Source of the DNA: the human T2T-CHM13v2.0 reference genome, Homo sapiens
Strand: one strand, 5' to 3'
Length of the DNA stretch: 64,000 bases
Assembly: GCF_009914755.1 (NCBI RefSeq)
Contig: NC_060938.1
The notes below the pieces were generated by a model that saw only the letters and a program-made list of their open reading frames with translations, was not told where the DNA came from and made no database searches. The translations under genes and the position numbers were made by a program. Within the stretch, counting starts at the first letter, position 1, and each line of letters opens with the position of its first letter. Positions 2,701 through 27,535 of this stretch are shown here, piece by piece.

Positions 2701-2927
2701 TGTGTGTGTGTGTGGTTTTTTTTAAAATACTTTAAGTTTTAGGGTACATGTGCACAATGTGCAGGTTTGTTACATATGTCTACATGTGCCATGTTGGTGT
2801 GCTGCACCCATTAACTCATCGTTTACATTAGGTATGTCACCTAATGCTATCCCTCCCTCCTCCCCCCACCCCACAACAGGCCCCAGTGTGTGATGTTCCC
2901 TTTCCTGTGTCCAAGTGTTCTCATTGT

Positions 2928-5900
2928 TCAATTCCCACCTATGAGTGAGAACATCCGGTGTTTGGTTTTTTGTCCTTGCGATAGTTTGCTGAGAATGATG
3001 GTTTCCAGCTTTATCCATGTCCCTACAAAGGACATGAACTCATCATTTTTTATGGCTGCATAGTATTCCTTGGTGTATATGTGCCACATTTTCTTAATCC
3101 AGTCTATCATTGTTGGACATTTGGGTTGGTTCCAAGTCTTTGCTGTTGTGAATAGTGCTGCAATAAACATACGTGTGCATGTGTCTTTATAGCAGCATGA
3201 TTTATAATCCTTTGGGTATATACCCAGTAATGGGATGGCTGGGTCAAATGGTATTTCTAGTTCTAGATCCCTGAGGAATCGCCACACTGACTTCCACAAT
3301 GGTTGAACTAGTTTACAGTCCCACCAACAGTGTAAAAGTGTTCCTATTTCTCCACATCCTCTCCAGCACCTGCTGTTTCCTGACTTTTTAATGATCGCCA
3401 TTCTAACTGGTGTGAGATGGTATCTCATTGTGGTTTTGATTTGCATTTCTCTAATGGCCAGTGATGATGAGCATTTTTTCATGTGTTTGTTGGCTGCATA
3501 AATGTCTTCTTTTGAGAAGTGTCTGTTCATATCCTTTGCTCACTTGTTGATGGTGTTGTTTGTTTTTTTCTTGTAAATTTGTTTGAGTTATTTGTAGATT
3601 CTGGATATTAGCCCTTTGTCAGATGAGTAGATTGCAAAAATTTTCTCCCATTCTGTAGGTTGCCTGTTCACTCTGATGGTAGTTTCTTTTGCTGTGCAGA
3701 AGCTCTTTAGTTTAATTAGATCCCATTTGTCAATTTTGGCTTTTGTTGCCATTGCTTTTGGTGTTTTAGACATGAAGTCCTTGCCCATGCCTATGTCCTG
3801 AATGGTATTGTCTAGCTTTTCTTCTAGGGTTTTTATGGTTTTAGGTCTAACATGTAAGTCTTTAATCCATCTTGAATTAATTTTTGTATAAGGTGTAAGG
3901 AAGGGATCCAGATTCAGCTTTCTACATATGGCTAGTCAGTTTTCCCAGCACCATTTATTAAATAGGGAATCCTTTCCCCATTTCTTGTTTTTGTCAGATT
4001 TGTCCAAGATCAGATGGTTGTAGATGTGTGGTATTATTTCTGAGGGCTCTGTTCTATTCCATTGGTCTATATCTCTGTTTTGGTACAAGTACCATGCTGT
4101 TTTGGTTACTGTAGCCTTGTAGTATAGTTTGAGGTCAGGTAGTGTGATGCCTCCAGCTTTGTTCTTTTGGCTTAGGATTGACTTGGCAATGCGAGCTCTT
4201 CTGTGGTTCCACATGAACTTTAAAGTAGTTTTTTCCAATTCTGTGAAGAAAGTCATTGGTAGCTTGATGGGGATGGAATTGACTCTGAAAATTACCTTGG
4301 GCACTATGGCCATTTTCATGATATTGATTCTTCCTACCCATGAGCATGGAACGTTCTTCCATTTGTTTGTATCCTCTTTTATTTCGTTGAGCAGTGGTTT
4401 GTAGTTCTCCTTGAAGAGGTCCTTCACATCCCTTATAAGTTGGATTGCTAGGTATTTTATTCTCTTTGTAGCAATTGTGAATGGGAGTTCACTCATGATT
4501 TGGCTCTCTGTTTGTCTGTTATTAGTGCATAAGAATGCTTGTGATTTTTGTATATTGATTTTGTATCCTGAGACTTTGCTGAAGTTGCTTATCAGCTTAA
4601 GGAGATTTGGGGCTGAGACAATGGGGTTTTCTAAATATACAATCATGTCATGTGCAAACAGGGACAGTTTGACTTCCTCTTTTCCTAATTGAATACGCTT
4701 TATTTCCTTCTCCTGCCTGGTTGCCCTGGCCAGGACTTCCAACACTATGTTGAATAGGAGTGGTGAGAGAGGGCATCCCTGTCTTGTGCCAGTTTTCCAA
4801 GGGAATGCTTTCAGTTGTTGCCCATTCAGTATGATATCAGCTGTGGGTCTGTCATAGATAGCTCTTATTATTTTGAGATACATCCCATCAATACCTAATT
4901 TATTGAGACGTTTTAGCATGAAGGGCTGCTGAATTTTGTCAAAGGCCTTCTCTGCATCTATTGAGATAATCATGTGGTTTTTGTTGTTGGTTCTGTTTAT
5001 ATGCTGGATTACATTTATTGATTTGCATATGTTGAACCAGCCTTGCATCCCAGGGATGAAGCCCACTTGATCATGGTGGATAAGCTTTTTGATGTGCTGC
5101 TGGATTTGGTTTGCCAGTATTTTACTGAGGATTGTTGCATTGATGTTCATCAGGGATATTGGTCTAAAATTCTCTTTTTCTGTTGTGTCTCTGCCAGGCT
5201 TTGGTATCAGGATGATGCTGGCCTTATAAAATGAGTTAGGGAGGATTGCCTCTTTTTCTATTGATTGGAATAGTTTAGAAGGAATGGTACCAGCTCTCCT
5301 TGTACATCTGGTAGAATTCAGCTGTGAATCCGTCTGTTCCTGGACTTTTATTCGTTGGTAAGCTATTAATTATTGCCTCACTTTCAGAGCCTGTTATTGG
5401 TCTATTCAGAGATTCAACTTCTTCCTGGTTTAGTCTTGGGAGGGTGTATGTGTCCAGGAATTTGTCCATTTCTTCTAGATTTTCTAATTTATTTGCATAG
5501 AGGTGTTTATAGTATTCTCTGATGGTAGTTTGTATTTCTGTGGGATTGGTGGTGATATCTCCTTTTTCATTTTTTATTACGTCCATTTGATTCTTCTCTC
5601 TTTTCTTCTTTATTAGTCTTGCTAGCGGTCTATCAATTTTGTTGATCTTTTCAAAAAACCAGCTCCTGGATTCATTGATTTTTTGAACGGTTTTTGTGTC
5701 TCTATCTCCTTCAGTTCTGCTCTGATCTTAGTTATTTCTTGCCTTCTGCTAGCTTTTGAATGTGTTTGCTCTTGCTTCTCTAGTTCTTTTAATTCTGATG
5801 TTAGGGTGTCAATTTTAGATCTTTCCTGCTTTCTCTTGTGGGTATTTAGTGCTATAAATTTCCCTCTACACACTGCTTTAAATGTGTACCAGAGATTCTG

Positions 5901-24500: not shown

Positions 24501-25378
24501 CAGTACCATTCAGAACATAGGCATGGGCAAGGACTTCATGTCTAAAACACCAAAAGCAATGGCAACAAAAGCCAAAATTGACAAATGAGATCTAATTAAA
24601 CTAAAGAGCTTCTGCACAGCAAAAGAAATTACCATCAGAGTGAACAGGCAACCTACAGAATGGGAGAAAATTTTTGCAACCTACTCATCTGACAAAGGGC
24701 TAATATGCAGAATCTACAGTGAACTCAAACAAATTTACAAGAAAAAAACAAACAACCCCATCAAAAAATGGGTGAAGGATATGAACAGACACTTCTCAAA
24801 AGAAGACATTTATGCAGCCAAAAAACACATGAAAAAATGCTCATCATCACTGGCCATCAGAGAAATGCAAATCAAAACCACAATGAGATACCATCTCACA
24901 CCAGTTAGAATGTCAATCATTAAAAAGTCAGGAAACAACAGGTGCTGAAGAGGATGTAGGGAAATAGGAATGCTTTTACACCGTTGGTGGGACTATAGAC
25001 TAGTTCAACCATTGTGGAAGTCAGTGTGGCAATTCCTCAGGGATCTAGAACTAGAAATACCATTTGACACAGCCATCCCATTACTGGGTATATACCCAAA
25101 GGATTATAAATCATGCTGCTATAAAGACACCCGCACACATATGTTTATTGCGGCATTATTCACAATAGCAAAGACTTGCAACCAACCCAAATGTCCAACA
25201 TTGATAGACTGGAATAAGAAAATGTGGCACATATACACCATGGAATACTATGCAGCCATAAGAAATGAGTTCATGTCCTTTGTAGGGACATGGATGAAGC
25301 TGAAAACCATCATTCTCAGCAAACTTTCACAAGGAAAAAAACCATACACCACATGTTCTCACTCATAGGTGGGAACTG
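21558..25378 (+). pseudogene. L1 ORF2p, disrupted
   Basis: Endonuclease, RT (FAHD) and C-terminal fragments in the ORF track, with stops and frameshifts. Confidence 0.95.
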
Positions 25379-27535
25379 AACAATGAGAACACATGGACAC
25401 AGGAAGGGGAACTTCACACACTCGGGACTGTGGTGGGGTGGGGAGAGGGGGGAGGGATAGCATTAGGAGAGATACCTAATGCTAAATGATGTGTTAATGG
25501 GTACAGCACACCAACATGGCACAAGTATACATATGTAACAAACCTGCACGTTGTGCACATGTACCCTAAAACTTAAAGTATTTTAAAAAAAGGATTAGAT
25601 TAAACTTGTCTCTAAGGAAATTAAAAAAAAAAAAGAATTGCAATTTGGGAACCTCTACTTAGATTTCAGAGGAGGTATGGCAATGCCTGGATGTCCAGGC
25701 AGAAGTTTGCTTCAGGGGTGGAGCCCTCATGAAGAACCTCTGCTAAGGCAGTATGGAAGGGAAATGTGAGGTTGGAGACCCCACACAGAGTCCCCCCTGT
25801 GGCACTGCCTAGTGGAGCTGTGAGAAGTGGCCACCGTCCTCCAGACCTCAGAATGGTAGATCCAACAACTGCTTGCACCATATGTCTGGAGAAGCTGCAG
25901 ATGCTCAATGCCAGCCTGTGAAAGCAGCCAGGCAGGGGGCTGTACCCTGCAAAGCCACAGGGGTGGAGTTGCTCAACACTGTGGGAGCCCACCTCTTGCA
26001 TCAGTGTGACTTGAATGTGAGATATGGAGTCAAAGGAGACAATTTTGGAGCTTTAAGATTTAATGACTCCCCTGTTGGATTTTGGACTTGTATGGGTGGG
26101 ACATGTAGTCCCTTTGTTTTGGCCAATTTCTCCCATTTGGAATGGGAGCATTTATCTAATGCCTGTACCCACATTGTATCTTGTAAGTAACTAACTTGCT
26201 TTTGATTTCAGGCTCCTAGGCAGAAGAGACTTGCCTTGTCTCAGATGAGACTTTGGACTTGGATTTTTGAGTTAATGCTGGAATGAGTTAAGACTTTAGG
26301 GAACTGTAGGGAAGGCATGATTGATTTTGAAACATGAGGAAATGGGATTTGGGAGGGGCCAGGGGTGAAATGATATGATTTGGCTGTGTCCCCACCCAAA
26401 TCTCATCTTGAATTATAATCCCCATAATCCCCACGTGTCTAGGGAGAGACCTGTGGGAGGTAATTGGATCATGGAGACAGTTTTCTCCATGCTGTTCTTG
26501 TGATAGTGAGTGAATTCTCACAAGATCTGATGGTTTTATAAGGAGCTCTTTCCCCTTCACTCCTCGCACTTCTCTCTCCTGCTGCCTTGTGAGGAAAAAT
26601 GTGTTTGCTTCCGCTTCCAGTATGATTATAAGTTTTCTGAGGCTTCTCTAGCCATGTGGAACTATAAGTCAATTAAACCTTTTTCCTTTATAAATTACCC
26701 AGTCTTGGGTAGTATCTTTATAGCAGTGTGAGAACAGACTAATACATCACCCATCTCCATTATCTCCCTGAGCAGGGCACTTCAGTTTGGTTATGTCACC
26801 TGATTATTCATTGTGGACTTTGAGTTTGAAACTCTTGACTATGAGAGTCTGGCTACATCTATTTGCGCATTCAAATTCAAAACATAACTGAGAATAAATG
26901 TGAGAGGAGCATGTTTCTTCTTCCTTTGTTGCTAAAATTTTTTCATTCAAAATAGAGAAAACCATAGGGACACTGTTTGAAACCCCCAACTTCTAAGAAT
27001 TTGAAACAATGTTTTGATGGAGACATAATCAAGGATCTAAGAATGCCAAAGTCCCATCCCAGCAGTTATACTAGTCCCTTCCTTCTGCCCTCTCCAGCCC
27101 CTCCTAAGGGAACGTTGTATAATCACACAGTGTTGCATGGGAAAAATAGGGCAATAGGATTAGAGATGTAGGTTGAATGGGACTTTCTTCCTCATGTTGT
27201 TTTCTATTTGGGTTGCAATTAGACAAATATAATGAATTTTCAGCTTTAGCCAGAAACACTTGCAGATTTAGCTTTCTGGAACAGTCTCTAATTGCATTAG
27301 AAATAAAGATGGGGATGTAATTTAAAGAAGGAAAGGAAAAAACGACTTGAACTCAAGGAGAAAAAATAAATTATTCACAAAGCCAAAATGAGGCTTGGGG
27401 ATAGGCAGTGATTCACAAAGGCACCTAGAGGCTACCTCCACTGGAAAAGTTATCCTCACAGAACCCTAGTACATTTCCATGTAACCCCAGGGTTCCAGAA
27501 GCCTTTGAAAAGGGATGCATTAGATGTTATAATAG

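What the first reader, a model, noticed from the sequence alone, without database searches (positions are those of the whole stretch)
2716..25632. Two independently inserted, inverted L1s homogenised over about 3.9 kb by gene conversion
Seen: the L1s have different hosts (Alu vs THE1), different 5' termini (ggtggttcc vs ggtggagcc), 5'UTRs roughly 10% apart by eye, and no shared lesions in the last ~1.1 kb of ORF2/3'UTR. Yet between about 3930-7830 and 20478-24380 they share the same lesions: TAA after QADLIDI (6206-6208 / 22098-22100), the ETQKPFKKS frameshift, two 1-bp deletions ('ggagagctgg', 'ttctaaact'), RT catalytic FADD to FAHD (4650-4652 / 23658-23660) and TGA after WEN (3936-3938 / 24373-24375). 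Identity is patchy: about 370 bp with no mismatch (5333-5702 vs 22608-22977) and about 290 bp in ORF1, next to blocks 3-5% diverged. Inference: a competent source element could not carry these lesions, so they were copied after insertion, in several events of different age, probably mostly left to right (tract looks L1PA5-like).
Basis: partly seen in the sequence, partly recalled or inferred. Interest (0 to 1): 0.85.

Follow-up and report, generated by a model that had tools for sequence, protein, structure and literature searches.

The report
Gene conversion between two inverted L1s
Two separately inserted human L1 retrotransposons lying head to head 11 kb apart have had about 3.9 kb of their coding region made alike by repeated DNA copying, most likely from the older, already broken copy into the younger one; it is a clean example of a known process.

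Summary
The left L1 (2716-8851, minus strand) splits an Alu. The right L1 (about 19979-25632, plus strand) splits another repeat and has a 17-nt target-site duplication. Only the right copy carries a 31-nt 3' extension, which comes from chr8.

Between 7803-3936 and 20504-24375 the copies differ at 2.66% of positions. The 5'UTR differs at 11.7% and the 3' end at 6.3%. Inside the tract they share 50 states found in none of 16 other copies. The other 152 pairs share at most 5.

The tract tree joins the two copies with 100/100 support. The flank trees do not.

Genome-wide, the shared double 1-bp deletion and the shared frameshift occur only in these two copies. The three point lesions each recur elsewhere, with 25, 41 and 126 hits.

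Divergence within the tract is patchy, about 0.5% in some blocks and 3.6% in others, which indicates several events.

The tract belongs to the older right copy's lineage, so the founding event most likely ran right to left.

This is a new instance of a known process, of modest interest.

The parts
2716..8851 (-). Left L1. It is full length (about 6.1 kb). The 5' end is near 8851 and the poly(A) ends near 2716. It is the younger copy and the likely acceptor.
   Evidence: Sequence read. Pfam finds RVT_1 and Exo_endo_phos, and PDB ORF2p 8c8j matches at E=4.7e-269. Its flanks are adjacent halves of one Alu. The 3'-flank tip length is 0.020.
19979..25632 (+). Right L1. It is the older copy and the likely donor. 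It has an internal 5'UTR deletion of about 520 nt (junction near 20070), a first poly(A) at 25585-25591, a 31-nt extension and a second poly(A).
   Evidence: Sequence read. Pfam finds RVT_1, Transposase_22, Tnp_22_dsRBD and Tnp_22_trimer. The 3'-flank tip length is 0.037.
3936..7803 (-). Left arm of the homogenised tract, running from just inside the ORF1 start to ORF2 codon WEN/TGA. The 5' limit lies between 7852 and 7803, and the 3' limit between 3936 and 3912.
   Evidence: There are 103 differences in 3873 columns, and 50 states exclusive to the pair.
20504..24375 (+). Right arm of the homogenised tract. The limits lie at 20455-20504 and 24375-24399.
5343..5924 (-). Largest recently converted block. 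Its partner lies at about 22386-22967. It contains the 371-nt identical run and the shared frameshift. The other low-divergence blocks are at left 7803-7684, 7293-6865 and 5229-5060.
   Evidence: A two-state HMM gives 0.56% versus 3.6% difference, with logL -460.06 versus -467.85 for one state.
22098..22100 (+). Shared TAA stop after QADLIDI in the endonuclease domain. The left partner is at 6206-6208.
   Evidence: The exact 29-mer has 25 genome hits, so the change alone is recurrent.
22610..22642 (+). Shared 1-bp loss in an A run plus C>G, a frameshift giving ETQKPFKKS. The left partner is at 5668-5700.
   Evidence: Alignment to 19 copies. The 33-mer has 2 genome hits, both at this locus.
23009..23047 (+). 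Two shared 1-bp deletions 19 nt apart. The left partner is at 5263-5301.
   Evidence: The 39-mer has 2 genome hits, both here. The undeleted 41-mer has 1423 hits.
23658..23660 (+). Shared change in the RT catalytic motif, FADD to FAHD. The left partner is at 4650-4652.
   Evidence: Alignment to PDB 8c8j ORF2p. The 26-mer has 41 genome hits.
24373..24375 (+). Shared TGA after WCWEN. It is the last state exclusive to the pair and marks the 3' edge of the tract. The left partner is at 3936-3938.
   Evidence: There are 126 genome hits with TGA against 9614 with TGG.
25592..25622 (+). A 31-nt extension between the two poly(A) runs, lying inside the target-site duplication. It is read as a 3' transduction.
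   Evidence: The only other genome match, with 1 mismatch, is chr8:117084425-117084455. That site lies in non-L1 DNA with no L1 beside it.
19959..19975 (+). 5' copy of the right L1's target-site duplication. The 3' copy is at 25633-25649.
   Evidence: 15 of 17 positions are identical. The two flanks overlap by 17 nt on another copy of the host repeat at 34676-34692.
8852..19978 (.). The 11.1-kb spacer between the two 5' ends. The L1s lie head to head.
   Evidence: Each L1 still has both halves of its own host repeat, so the spacer stands in the original orientation or has been inverted an even number of times (inference).

Best explanation
Two L1PA-type LINE-1 elements inserted independently, head to head, 11 kb apart. 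The right copy inserted first. It came from a progenitor at chr8 that is no longer present in this genome. It then decayed in place, acquiring a stop codon, three 1-bp deletions, a change in the catalytic motif and another stop.

The left copy inserted later, into an Alu. Early in the left copy's residence, non-allelic (intrachromosomal) gene conversion without crossover copied about 3.87 kb into it from the right copy. The tract runs from the ORF1 start to ORF2 codon ~940 and carried the right copy's lesions with it. The divergent 5'UTRs probably set the 5' limit, and the right copy's 520-nt deletion may also have contributed.

Because the tract was now nearly identical in both copies, shorter conversions of about 120-580 bp kept occurring inside it. 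The latest are recent enough to leave 290-371 bp with no difference.

Shown: independent insertion, exclusive sharing of derived states within sharp limits, tree incongruence, and patchy divergence.

Inferred: the direction, the order and dating of events, and the mechanism of double-strand-break repair or heteroduplex repair between inverted repeats.

The confidence given (0.78) is for this whole account including the right-to-left direction; post-insertion gene conversion as such I put at about 0.95.
For: Independent insertion:
- The flanks of each L1 are adjacent parts of one host repeat. The right copy has a 17-nt duplication.
- The right copy alone has a 31-nt 3' extension, whose only other match is non-L1 DNA on chr8.
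- Outside the tract each copy is nearer to 39 unlinked copies than to its partner. The right copy's best unlinked matches are 94-95% identical and the left copy's are 96-97%. The partner is absent from both top-40 lists.

Homogenisation:
- The copies differ at 2.66% in the tract, against 11.7% in the 5'UTR and 6.3% in the 3' flank.
- The pair shares 50 exclusive states, against a maximum of 5 in the other 152 pairs. There are 0 such states over L1 positions 4940-6120.
- The tract tree places (L,R) together at 100/100 with a stem of 0.023. An AU test rejects the flank-like topology in the tract at p=8.5e-50.
- Holding L+R together in the flanks costs 25 lnL units (p=0.048 joined; 0.025 for the 5'UTR; 0.088 for the 3' flank).

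Not a shared defective source:
- The double-deletion 39-mer and the frameshift 33-mer each have 2 of 2 genome hits at this locus. The undeleted 41-mer has 1423 hits.
- Eight unlinked TAA carriers hold only 1-4 of 29-37 pair-exclusive states.

Several events:
- Identical runs have P=0.002 and P=0.0003. Binned chi-square gives p=0.002-0.012.
- HMM blocks run at 0.56% and 3.6% difference. The high blocks have balanced private changes (49 left, 43 right) and still hold 36 pair-specific (seen in at most one outgroup copy) states.

Direction:
- R+L049 group together in both flanks, and (L,R)+L049 group together in the tract.
- Clade-diagnostic sites favour the right copy 3 to 0.
- The right tip length in the 3' flank (0.037) equals the tract stem plus tip (0.023+0.014). 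The left tip is 0.020.
Against: - No orthologous ape loci could be examined, so all timing rests on divergence.
- The 3'-flank AU test alone is not significant (p=0.088), and the joined flanks are borderline (p=0.048).
- Three of the six lesions recur singly in unlinked copies, with 25, 41 and 126 hits.
- Six of the 8 unlinked TAA carriers examined also share state T at 21593. This hints that the TAA may mark a small lineage rather than being purely recurrent.
- Direction leans on one unlinked copy (L049). The R+L049 grouping was named after the tree was seen. It also rests on only 3 discordant diagnostic sites. The left copy's own flank placement is unresolved.
- The 19 comparison copies are not a random sample. 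They come from the 20 best of 38 unlinked copies scored, out of 2519 candidates, for one 401-nt query inside the tract. One of the 20 (L044) was dropped because it was rearranged.
- With CpG sites removed, the heterogeneity is weaker (p=0.015-0.097).
Confidence: 0.78

Rival explanations
1. The founding 3.9-kb exchange was part of the left copy's integration, not a later event. In this reading the integration intermediate (nicked target, long cDNA) was repaired with the neighbouring old L1 as template. Alternatively, reverse transcription switched templates twice.
For: The older blocks diverge by 1.85% per lineage (95% CI 1.48-2.24%). This is statistically indistinguishable from the left copy's own flank load of 2.29% (CI 1.44-3.22%) and its tip length of 0.020. 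A single tract of 3.87 kb is long beside the 250-bp mean reported for human non-allelic conversion (abstract of 10.1101/135152).
Against: The confidence intervals also allow a delay of up to about half of the left copy's lifetime. This reading needs two switches, and it requires the template to be the neighbour. Ordinary conversion is favoured at short distance and high identity, both of which were greatest just after insertion. The tract could also be several old events of similar age.
Confidence: 0.07
2. The founding conversion ran left to right. In this reading the lesions arose in the left copy.
For: The left copy is the more complete element. The direction of the later short events is not determined. 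The left copy's flank placement in the trees is unresolved.
Against: The tract's derived load in the left copy is 163/3868, against 27/1181 in its own flank (p=0.002). For the right copy the figures are 158/3868 against 60/1181 (p=0.15). The trees and the diagnostic sites (3 to 0) place the tract with the right copy's lineage.
Confidence: 0.12
3. Both copies descend from one defective, trans-mobilised progenitor and inherited the lesions from it, with no conversion.
For: The TAA, FAHD and TGA changes each occur in unlinked copies. Six of 8 TAA carriers share one further state.
Against: The flanks are not sisters. The flanks differ by 6-12%, against 2.7% in the tract. Only the right copy has the chr8-derived extension. 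The indel combinations occur nowhere else in the genome. No unlinked locus appears in two of the three lesion lists, though only 100 of the 126 TGA hits were listed.
Confidence: 0.02
4. The pattern comes from an inverted segmental duplication of one L1, or from an assembly collapse.
For: The two arms are long, inverted and up to 98% identical.
Against: Homology stops at the L1 ends. The hosts and target-site duplications differ between the copies. The longest identical run is 371 nt, and the arms differ at 103 sites within the tract. Reads could not be checked here.
Confidence: 0.01

Closest known systems
Non-allelic gene conversion between nearby dispersed repeats (Alu and other transposable elements)
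   Same: Copies within about 10 kb exchange sequence. Copy trees then disagree with insertion history, and an old element's sequence can replace a young one or the reverse. Source: passages of the review PMC6598467, which cites Kass 1995 and Aleshin & Zhi 2010. PMC8230782 was seen only as a search listing and abstract start.
   Different: Here the partners are 6-kb L1s rather than 300-bp Alus. The tract is 3.87 kb, and inactivating lesions serve as markers. My four searches aimed at gene conversion (a fifth, covered related terms, and one search was aimed at inversions) found no paper that describes this locus. Subscription journals are not covered.
Non-allelic gene conversion in human duplicate genes (Harpak et al., 10.1101/135152)
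   Same: That work reports GC bias, a mean tract of 250 bp, and a rate that falls as copies diverge (abstract). Here the recent blocks are 120-582 bp. Pair-exclusive changes are W>S 24 to S>W 11, against 473 to 501 in singletons (p=0.025, uncorrected).
   Different: The partners here arose by independent retrotransposition, not by duplication. The founding tract is more than ten times the reported mean.
Inversions mediated by inverted L1 pairs (HsInv0341; human-chimpanzee retrotransposon-mediated inversions)
   Same: HsInv0341 is a 20.8-kb polymorphic inversion between 6.2-kb inverted L1PA3 copies (table passage of PMC3961182). Inverted L1 or Alu pairs caused 49 of 252 human-chimpanzee inversions (passages of PMC2603318). 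The architecture is the same as here.
   Different: That outcome is a crossover. Here each L1 keeps both of its own flanks, so the assembled haplotype shows no net inversion. Whether the 11-kb spacer is polymorphic in orientation was not tested.
Arm-to-arm conversion in Y-chromosome palindromes
   Same: Inverted arms are kept alike by intrachromosomal conversion.
   Different: Palindrome arms are duplications of unique sequence at over 99.9% identity. Here the arms are two unrelated insertions, only part of each arm is homogenised, and identity is 96-100%.
Repair of a break in a chromosomal LINE by conversion from other LINEs (Tremblay, Jasin & Chartrand 2000)
   Same: It gives an experimental basis for L1-to-L1 conversion. 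I saw it only as a citation in PMC1920257. That paper also models an intrachromosomal conversion into an L1.
   Different: That work used mouse cells, induced breaks and short tracts.
L1 3' transduction with a lost progenitor (orphan transduction)
   Same: Unique sequence with its own ATTAAA signal and a second poly(A) lies inside the target-site duplication. Its origin is found elsewhere in the genome.
   Different: The extension is only 31 nt. The origin site on chr8 has no L1 in this assembly, and no sibling copies carry the tag (2 hits in all).

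Membership tests
LINE-1 (L1PA-type) retrotransposon | ORF1p domains (trimerisation, RRM-like, C-terminal domain) | tested here: met
   Pfam finds Tnp_22_trimer, Transposase_22 and Tnp_22_dsRBD, with E-values from 6e-24 to 4e-62, in 20808-21491.
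LINE-1 (L1PA-type) retrotransposon | ORF2p with endonuclease and reverse-transcriptase domains | tested here: met
   Exo_endo_phos at E=6.5e-12. RVT_1 at E=1e-39 in both copies. Human ORF2p structures 8c8j and 8uw3 match at E about 1e-269. Both reading frames are broken.
LINE-1 (L1PA-type) retrotransposon | Poly(A) tail and target-site duplication | tested here: met
   The right copy has a 17-nt duplication. The left copy has a poly(A) and a split Alu, but only a weak 8-nt repeat in low-complexity sequence.
Named subfamily (L1PA3, L1PA5 and so on) | Diagnostic positions of the Repbase/Dfam consensus | not testable with these tools
   No repeat library was available. Only relative age could be measured. 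The right flank tip is 0.037 and the left is 0.020.
Non-allelic gene conversion tract | The two copies arose independently | tested here: met
   Searches show the partner is absent from each copy's top 40 outside the tract.
Non-allelic gene conversion tract | Tract and flanks give conflicting trees, with sharp limits | tested here: met
   In the tract (L,R) group at 100/100, and the AU test gives p=8.5e-50 against the flank topology. In the flanks, the AU test gives p=0.025, 0.088 and 0.048 against L+R. The limits fall within 50 nt at the 5' side and 25 nt at the 3' side.
Non-allelic gene conversion tract | Derived states, including inactivating ones, shared by the pair and absent elsewhere | tested here: met
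   50 pair-exclusive states, against a maximum of 5 in 152 control pairs. The two indel combinations are unique in the genome. Single point lesions are not unique.
Non-allelic gene conversion tract | No exchange of flanking markers (non-crossover) | tested here: met
   Each L1 keeps both halves of its own host repeat. An even number of inversions cannot be excluded.
Non-allelic gene conversion tract | Copies group by species inside the tract in orthologous comparisons | not testable with these tools
   Only this one human assembly could be searched.
Inverted segmental duplication / palindrome | Homology extends beyond the repeat into duplicated flanking sequence | tested here: not met
   The alignment decays to noise outside 2716-8851 and 19979-25632. 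The flanks belong to different host repeats.
L1 3' transduction | A source L1 sits immediately upstream of the transduced sequence at its origin | tested here: not met
   The 6.75 kb around chr8:117084425-455 shows no L1 match to either copy beyond the 37-nt tag. I read this as a progenitor lost from this genome (inference).

The most novel reading that the evidence does not exclude
A newly inserted, probably still coding-competent full-length L1 was overwritten over 3.9 kb by its dead neighbour. This happened either during its own integration or within a short time after it. If so, conversion from decayed copies acts as a passive way of killing young L1s that land near old ones. The homogenised core then kept converting for more than ten million years, with a GC bias.
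Probability: 0.12. Interest if true: 0.6.

Novelty: new member of a known kind. Interest (0 to 1): 0.3.

Why it matters
This is a well-delimited natural record of non-allelic gene conversion between dispersed repeats. The partners have different ages and lineages, the limits are sharp, and there are built-in markers (stops and frameshifts). It also carries a time series of events.

It shows three things:
- Divergence-based ages and subfamily calls for L1 copies near other L1s can be wrong over kilobases.
- An old dead element can inactivate a younger one.
- Once a core is homogenised it remains a substrate. The 290-371 nt of perfect inverted identity 11-17 kb apart also make the locus a candidate for recurrent inversion.

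None of this changes current understanding. Its value is as a clean case and as a caution for annotation.

Tried and rejected
- Passing a pattern to the genome search by reference is not accepted.
The nearest relatives of each 3' flank were therefore not aligned, and the trees use the 19 copies. L044 was dropped as rearranged.
- Unconverted islands inside the tract were considered and rejected. The high-divergence blocks have balanced private changes (49 to 43) and still hold 36 pair-specific (seen in at most one outgroup copy) states.
- Two successive inversions with different breakpoints were rejected as the cause. They would swap segments without making them alike (reasoning).
- I looked for sibling copies carrying the right copy's 3' tag, to read the progenitor's state. 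None exist, and the chr8 site has no L1.
- A GC-bias test gave p=0.013-0.025 in two of three comparisons and p=0.35 in the third, uncorrected. I treat this as suggestive only.
- Six literature searches found no description of this locus. The chr14 inversions in PMC3961182 are at other places.
- Subfamily naming and read-level checking of the assembly were not possible.

Full report
ANATOMY

The window is human chr14 (T2T-CHM13). A self-comparison aligns 2717-8236 with 25591-20072 in inverted orientation, at 95.98% identity over 5526 columns. The repeat finder splits this into arms of 95-98% identity.

Reading the ends gives the following:
- The left element is on the minus strand. Its 5' end is near 8851 and its poly(A) ends near 2716, a length of about 6.1 kb.
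- The right element is on the plus strand and starts near 19979.
- The right element lacks about 520 nt of 5'UTR, with the junction near 20070.
- The right element ends in a poly(A) at 25585-25591, a 31-nt extension, and a second poly(A) that runs to 25632.

Both elements are L1. Pfam finds the three ORF1p domains, Exo_endo_phos and RVT_1. The left RT fragment matches solved human ORF2p (8c8j, 8uw3) at about E=1e-269. The two 5' ends face each other across an 11.1-kb spacer.

INDEPENDENT INSERTION

- The left copy's flanks hit adjacent halves of the same Alu copies elsewhere in the window, for example 62005-61870 and 61873-61727.
- The right copy's flanks hit one copy of another repeat at 34720-34676 and 34692-34325. 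The 17-nt overlap is its target-site duplication, which matches at 15 of 17 positions.
- The left copy's own duplication is weak. It is 8 nt long and sits in a low-complexity linker.
- The right copy's 31-nt extension has exactly one other match in the genome at up to 3 mismatches: chr8:117084425-117084455, with 1 mismatch.
- The 6.75 kb fetched around that chr8 site contains no L1 match beyond the 37-nt tag.
- I read the extension as a 3' transduction from a progenitor that is absent from this genome. The left copy has no such tag.

DIVERGENCE PROFILE

I aligned both copies with 19 unlinked L1 copies.
- The 19 were chosen from the best-scoring matches to 22000-22400. Of 2519 candidates, 40 were scored. 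Twenty were fetched and one (L044) was dropped as rearranged.
- The pair differs at 11.7% over 5'UTR positions 616-1000, at 2.66% over L1 positions 1049-4916, and at 6.27% over positions 4940-6120.
- Inside the tract the partner is far nearer than any other copy (0.003-0.05, against minima of 0.02-0.08).
- Outside the tract the partner is no nearer than the median unlinked copy.
- Genome searches with the 1.19 kb 3' of the tract list 39 unlinked copies at 94-95% identity for the right copy and 39 at 96-97% for the left. The partner is in neither list.

SHARED DERIVED STATES

- States carried by both copies and by none of the 16-19 others number 50 within L1 positions 1049-4916, 2 in 5'UTR positions 616-1000, and 0 in positions 4940-6120.
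- As a control, 153 pairs among 18 copies were scored. The other 152 pairs share a median of 1 and a maximum of 5 such states over the same columns.
- The limits are tight. The last flank-type differences are at 7852/20455 and the first exclusive state at 7803/20504.
- At the other end, the last exclusive state is the TGA at 3936/24375 and the next difference is at 3912/24399.

ARE THE LESIONS FOUND ELSEWHERE?

Exact genome-wide pattern counts (the pattern read backwards, used as a control, gave 0 hits each time):

| Pattern | Hits |
|---|---|
| TAA 29-mer | 25 |
| FAHD 26-mer | 41 |
| TGA 29-mer | 126 |
| TGG form of the TGA 29-mer | 9614 |
| Frameshift plus C>G 33-mer | 2, both here |
| Double-deletion 39-mer | 2, both here |
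| Undeleted 41-mer | 1423 |

- Single point lesions therefore recur at about the 1% level and prove little on their own.
- No unlinked locus appears in two of the three point-lesion lists, as far as they were printed (100 of 126 for TGA).
- Eight unlinked TAA carriers are 91-93% identical to the right copy. They hold 1-4 of 29-37 pair-exclusive states, counting the TAA itself.
- Six of those eight share T at 21593, which remains unexplained.

TREES

| Segment | Rows | Result | Tip lengths |
|---|---|---|---|
| Tract | 19 (L039, L032 left out) | (L,R) at 100/100, stem 0.023; joined to L049 at 87/82 within a clade L049/L040/L034/L043 at 95/97 | 0.013 (L), 0.014 (R) |
| 5'UTR | 18 (L043, L046, L039 left out) | R+L049 at 95/89 | — |
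| 3' flank | 18 (L034, L039, L032 left out) | R+L049 at 93/92 | 0.020 (L), 0.037 (R) |

The AU tests are:
- Forcing the flank topology on the tract costs 194 lnL units (p=8.5e-50).
- Forcing L+R together costs 12.5 units in the 5'UTR (p=0.025), 20.2 in the 3' flank (p=0.088) and 25.1 for the flanks joined (p=0.048).
- With the flanks joined, R+L049 is supported at 99/97.

The incongruence is very strong on the tract side and moderate on the flank side.

DIRECTION

Four lines of evidence point to the right copy as donor in the founding event.
1. The tract and the right copy's flanks share the L049 affinity.
2. I examined sites that separate the L049/L040/L034/L043 clade from the rest. Both copies carry the clade state at 8 of the 10 cleanest tract sites. 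In the flanks the right copy has the clade state while the left has the other state at 3 sites. The reverse occurs at 0 sites.
3. The left copy's derived load is 163/3868 in the tract against 27/1181 in its 3' flank (p=0.002). The right copy's is 158/3868 against 60/1181 (p=0.15). The same holds for ORF2 alone, with p=0.003 and p=0.29.
4. The right copy's flank tip (0.037) equals the tract stem plus tip.

Caveats. The R+L049 group was named after the tree was seen. The number of diagnostic sites is small. The direction of the later short events is unknown.

SEVERAL EVENTS

- The 103 differences in the tract, of which 25 are CpG-associated, are unevenly spread.
- Binned chi-square gives p=0.002-0.012 for all differences and 0.015-0.097 without CpG.
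- The longest identical runs are 371 and 290 nt (P=0.002 and P=0.0003 in 20000 permutations).
- A two-state HMM (logL -460.06 against -467.85) gives four low blocks of 120-582 nt at 0.56% difference. These are interleaved with high blocks at 3.6%.
- The high blocks have balanced private changes (49 left, 43 right) and 36 pair-specific (seen in at most one outgroup copy) states. They were therefore converted too, but earlier, at 1.85% per lineage (CI 1.48-2.24%).
- That is close to the left copy's own age of 2.0-2.3%.
- The low blocks have a higher density of pair-specific (seen in at most one outgroup copy) states (2.23% against 1.40%, one-sided p=0.043). This is expected if they also carry later mutations of a donor.
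- Five of the six lesions lie in high blocks. They therefore predate the founding event and reached the left copy with it.

RATES AND DATES (ROUGH)

I used a rate of about 0.17% per Myr, as used for L1PA dating. This figure is recalled from Khan et al. 2006 and was not read here. The resulting ages are approximate:
- Right copy: 22-30 Myr.
- Left copy: 12-13 Myr.
- Founding conversion: about 11 Myr ago.
- Latest blocks: 1-2 Myr ago.

These ages predict which primates share which state.

MECHANISM

The shown facts fit non-crossover homologous repair between inverted repeats on one chromosome. Each L1 retains both of its own flanks. This means there has been no net inversion, although an even number of inversions cannot be excluded.

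A modest excess of W>S among pair-exclusive changes is in line with the GC bias reported for human non-allelic conversion (abstract of 10.1101/135152). The counts are 24 to 11 among pair-exclusive changes. The comparisons are 473 to 501 in outgroup singletons (p=0.025), 17 to 26 in flank-private changes (p=0.013) and 24 to 19 in tract-private changes (p=0.35). These tests are uncorrected.

The 5' limit coincides with the change to 12% divergence in the 5'UTR. I have no explanation for the position of the 3' limit.

COMPARISON WITH WHAT IS KNOWN

- Conversion between nearby transposable-element copies is established, mostly for Alu (passages of PMC6598467).
- Conversion into L1s is documented experimentally and in single loci (passages and reference list of PMC1920257).
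- Inverted L1 pairs with this architecture are known to drive inversions. Examples are HsInv0341, in the table of PMC3961182, and 49 of 252 human-chimpanzee inversions in PMC2603318.
- This locus is a new, unusually legible member of that kind, not a new kind.
- My six searches found no description of it. Subscription journals and supplementary tables of inversion catalogues were not seen and may list the locus.

VERDICT

Interest is modest.

Noticed in passing
window 25592-25622; L063 (chr8:117084150-117090900): The right L1's 31-nt 3' extension matches unique non-L1 DNA on chr8 with 1 mismatch. No L1 is present there, and no sibling copies carry the tag. I read it as an orphan 3' transduction whose progenitor is absent from this assembly.
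   Followed up: yes
L063, just upstream of the chr8 match: The 13 nt immediately upstream of the transduced sequence at chr8 are the reverse complement of the last 13 nt of the L1 3'UTR before its poly(A). In addition, the chr8 sequence begins AAGAATTAGATT, which resembles the chr14 target-site duplication AAGAATTGAGATT. The region is AT-rich. This may be chance or endonuclease target preference.
   Followed up: no
window 20060-20080: The right L1 has an internal deletion of about 520 nt in its 5'UTR (L1 positions ~96-615). It removes homology and may have helped to set the 5' limit of the conversion.
   Followed up: partly
L051-L058 (unlinked copies with the TAA 29-mer): Six of these 8 copies also carry T at the position of window 21593, a state absent from the 18 comparison copies covering that site. 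Two of them (L053, L054) lie 34 kb apart on chr2. This could reflect an older subfamily state or a small lineage that carries the stop.
   Followed up: partly
window 7650-7652 and 20805-20807: Each copy has its own private stop in ORF1. Both are CGA to TGA changes at CpG sites, at different codons, acquired after the conversion. ORF1 has no shared stop, so the donor's ORF1 may still have been open at the founding event.
   Followed up: partly
window 2698-2715 and 2525-2545: Short (CA)n runs lie at the left L1's poly(A)/Alu junction and at the end of the host Alu. They blur the left copy's target-site duplication.
   Followed up: no
one search hit list, chr1:147.38-147.68 Mb: Five of the 41 FAHD-pattern hits lie within 300 kb on chr1. 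This is probably one L1 copied by segmental duplication, so the count of independent recurrences is lower than 41.
   Followed up: no
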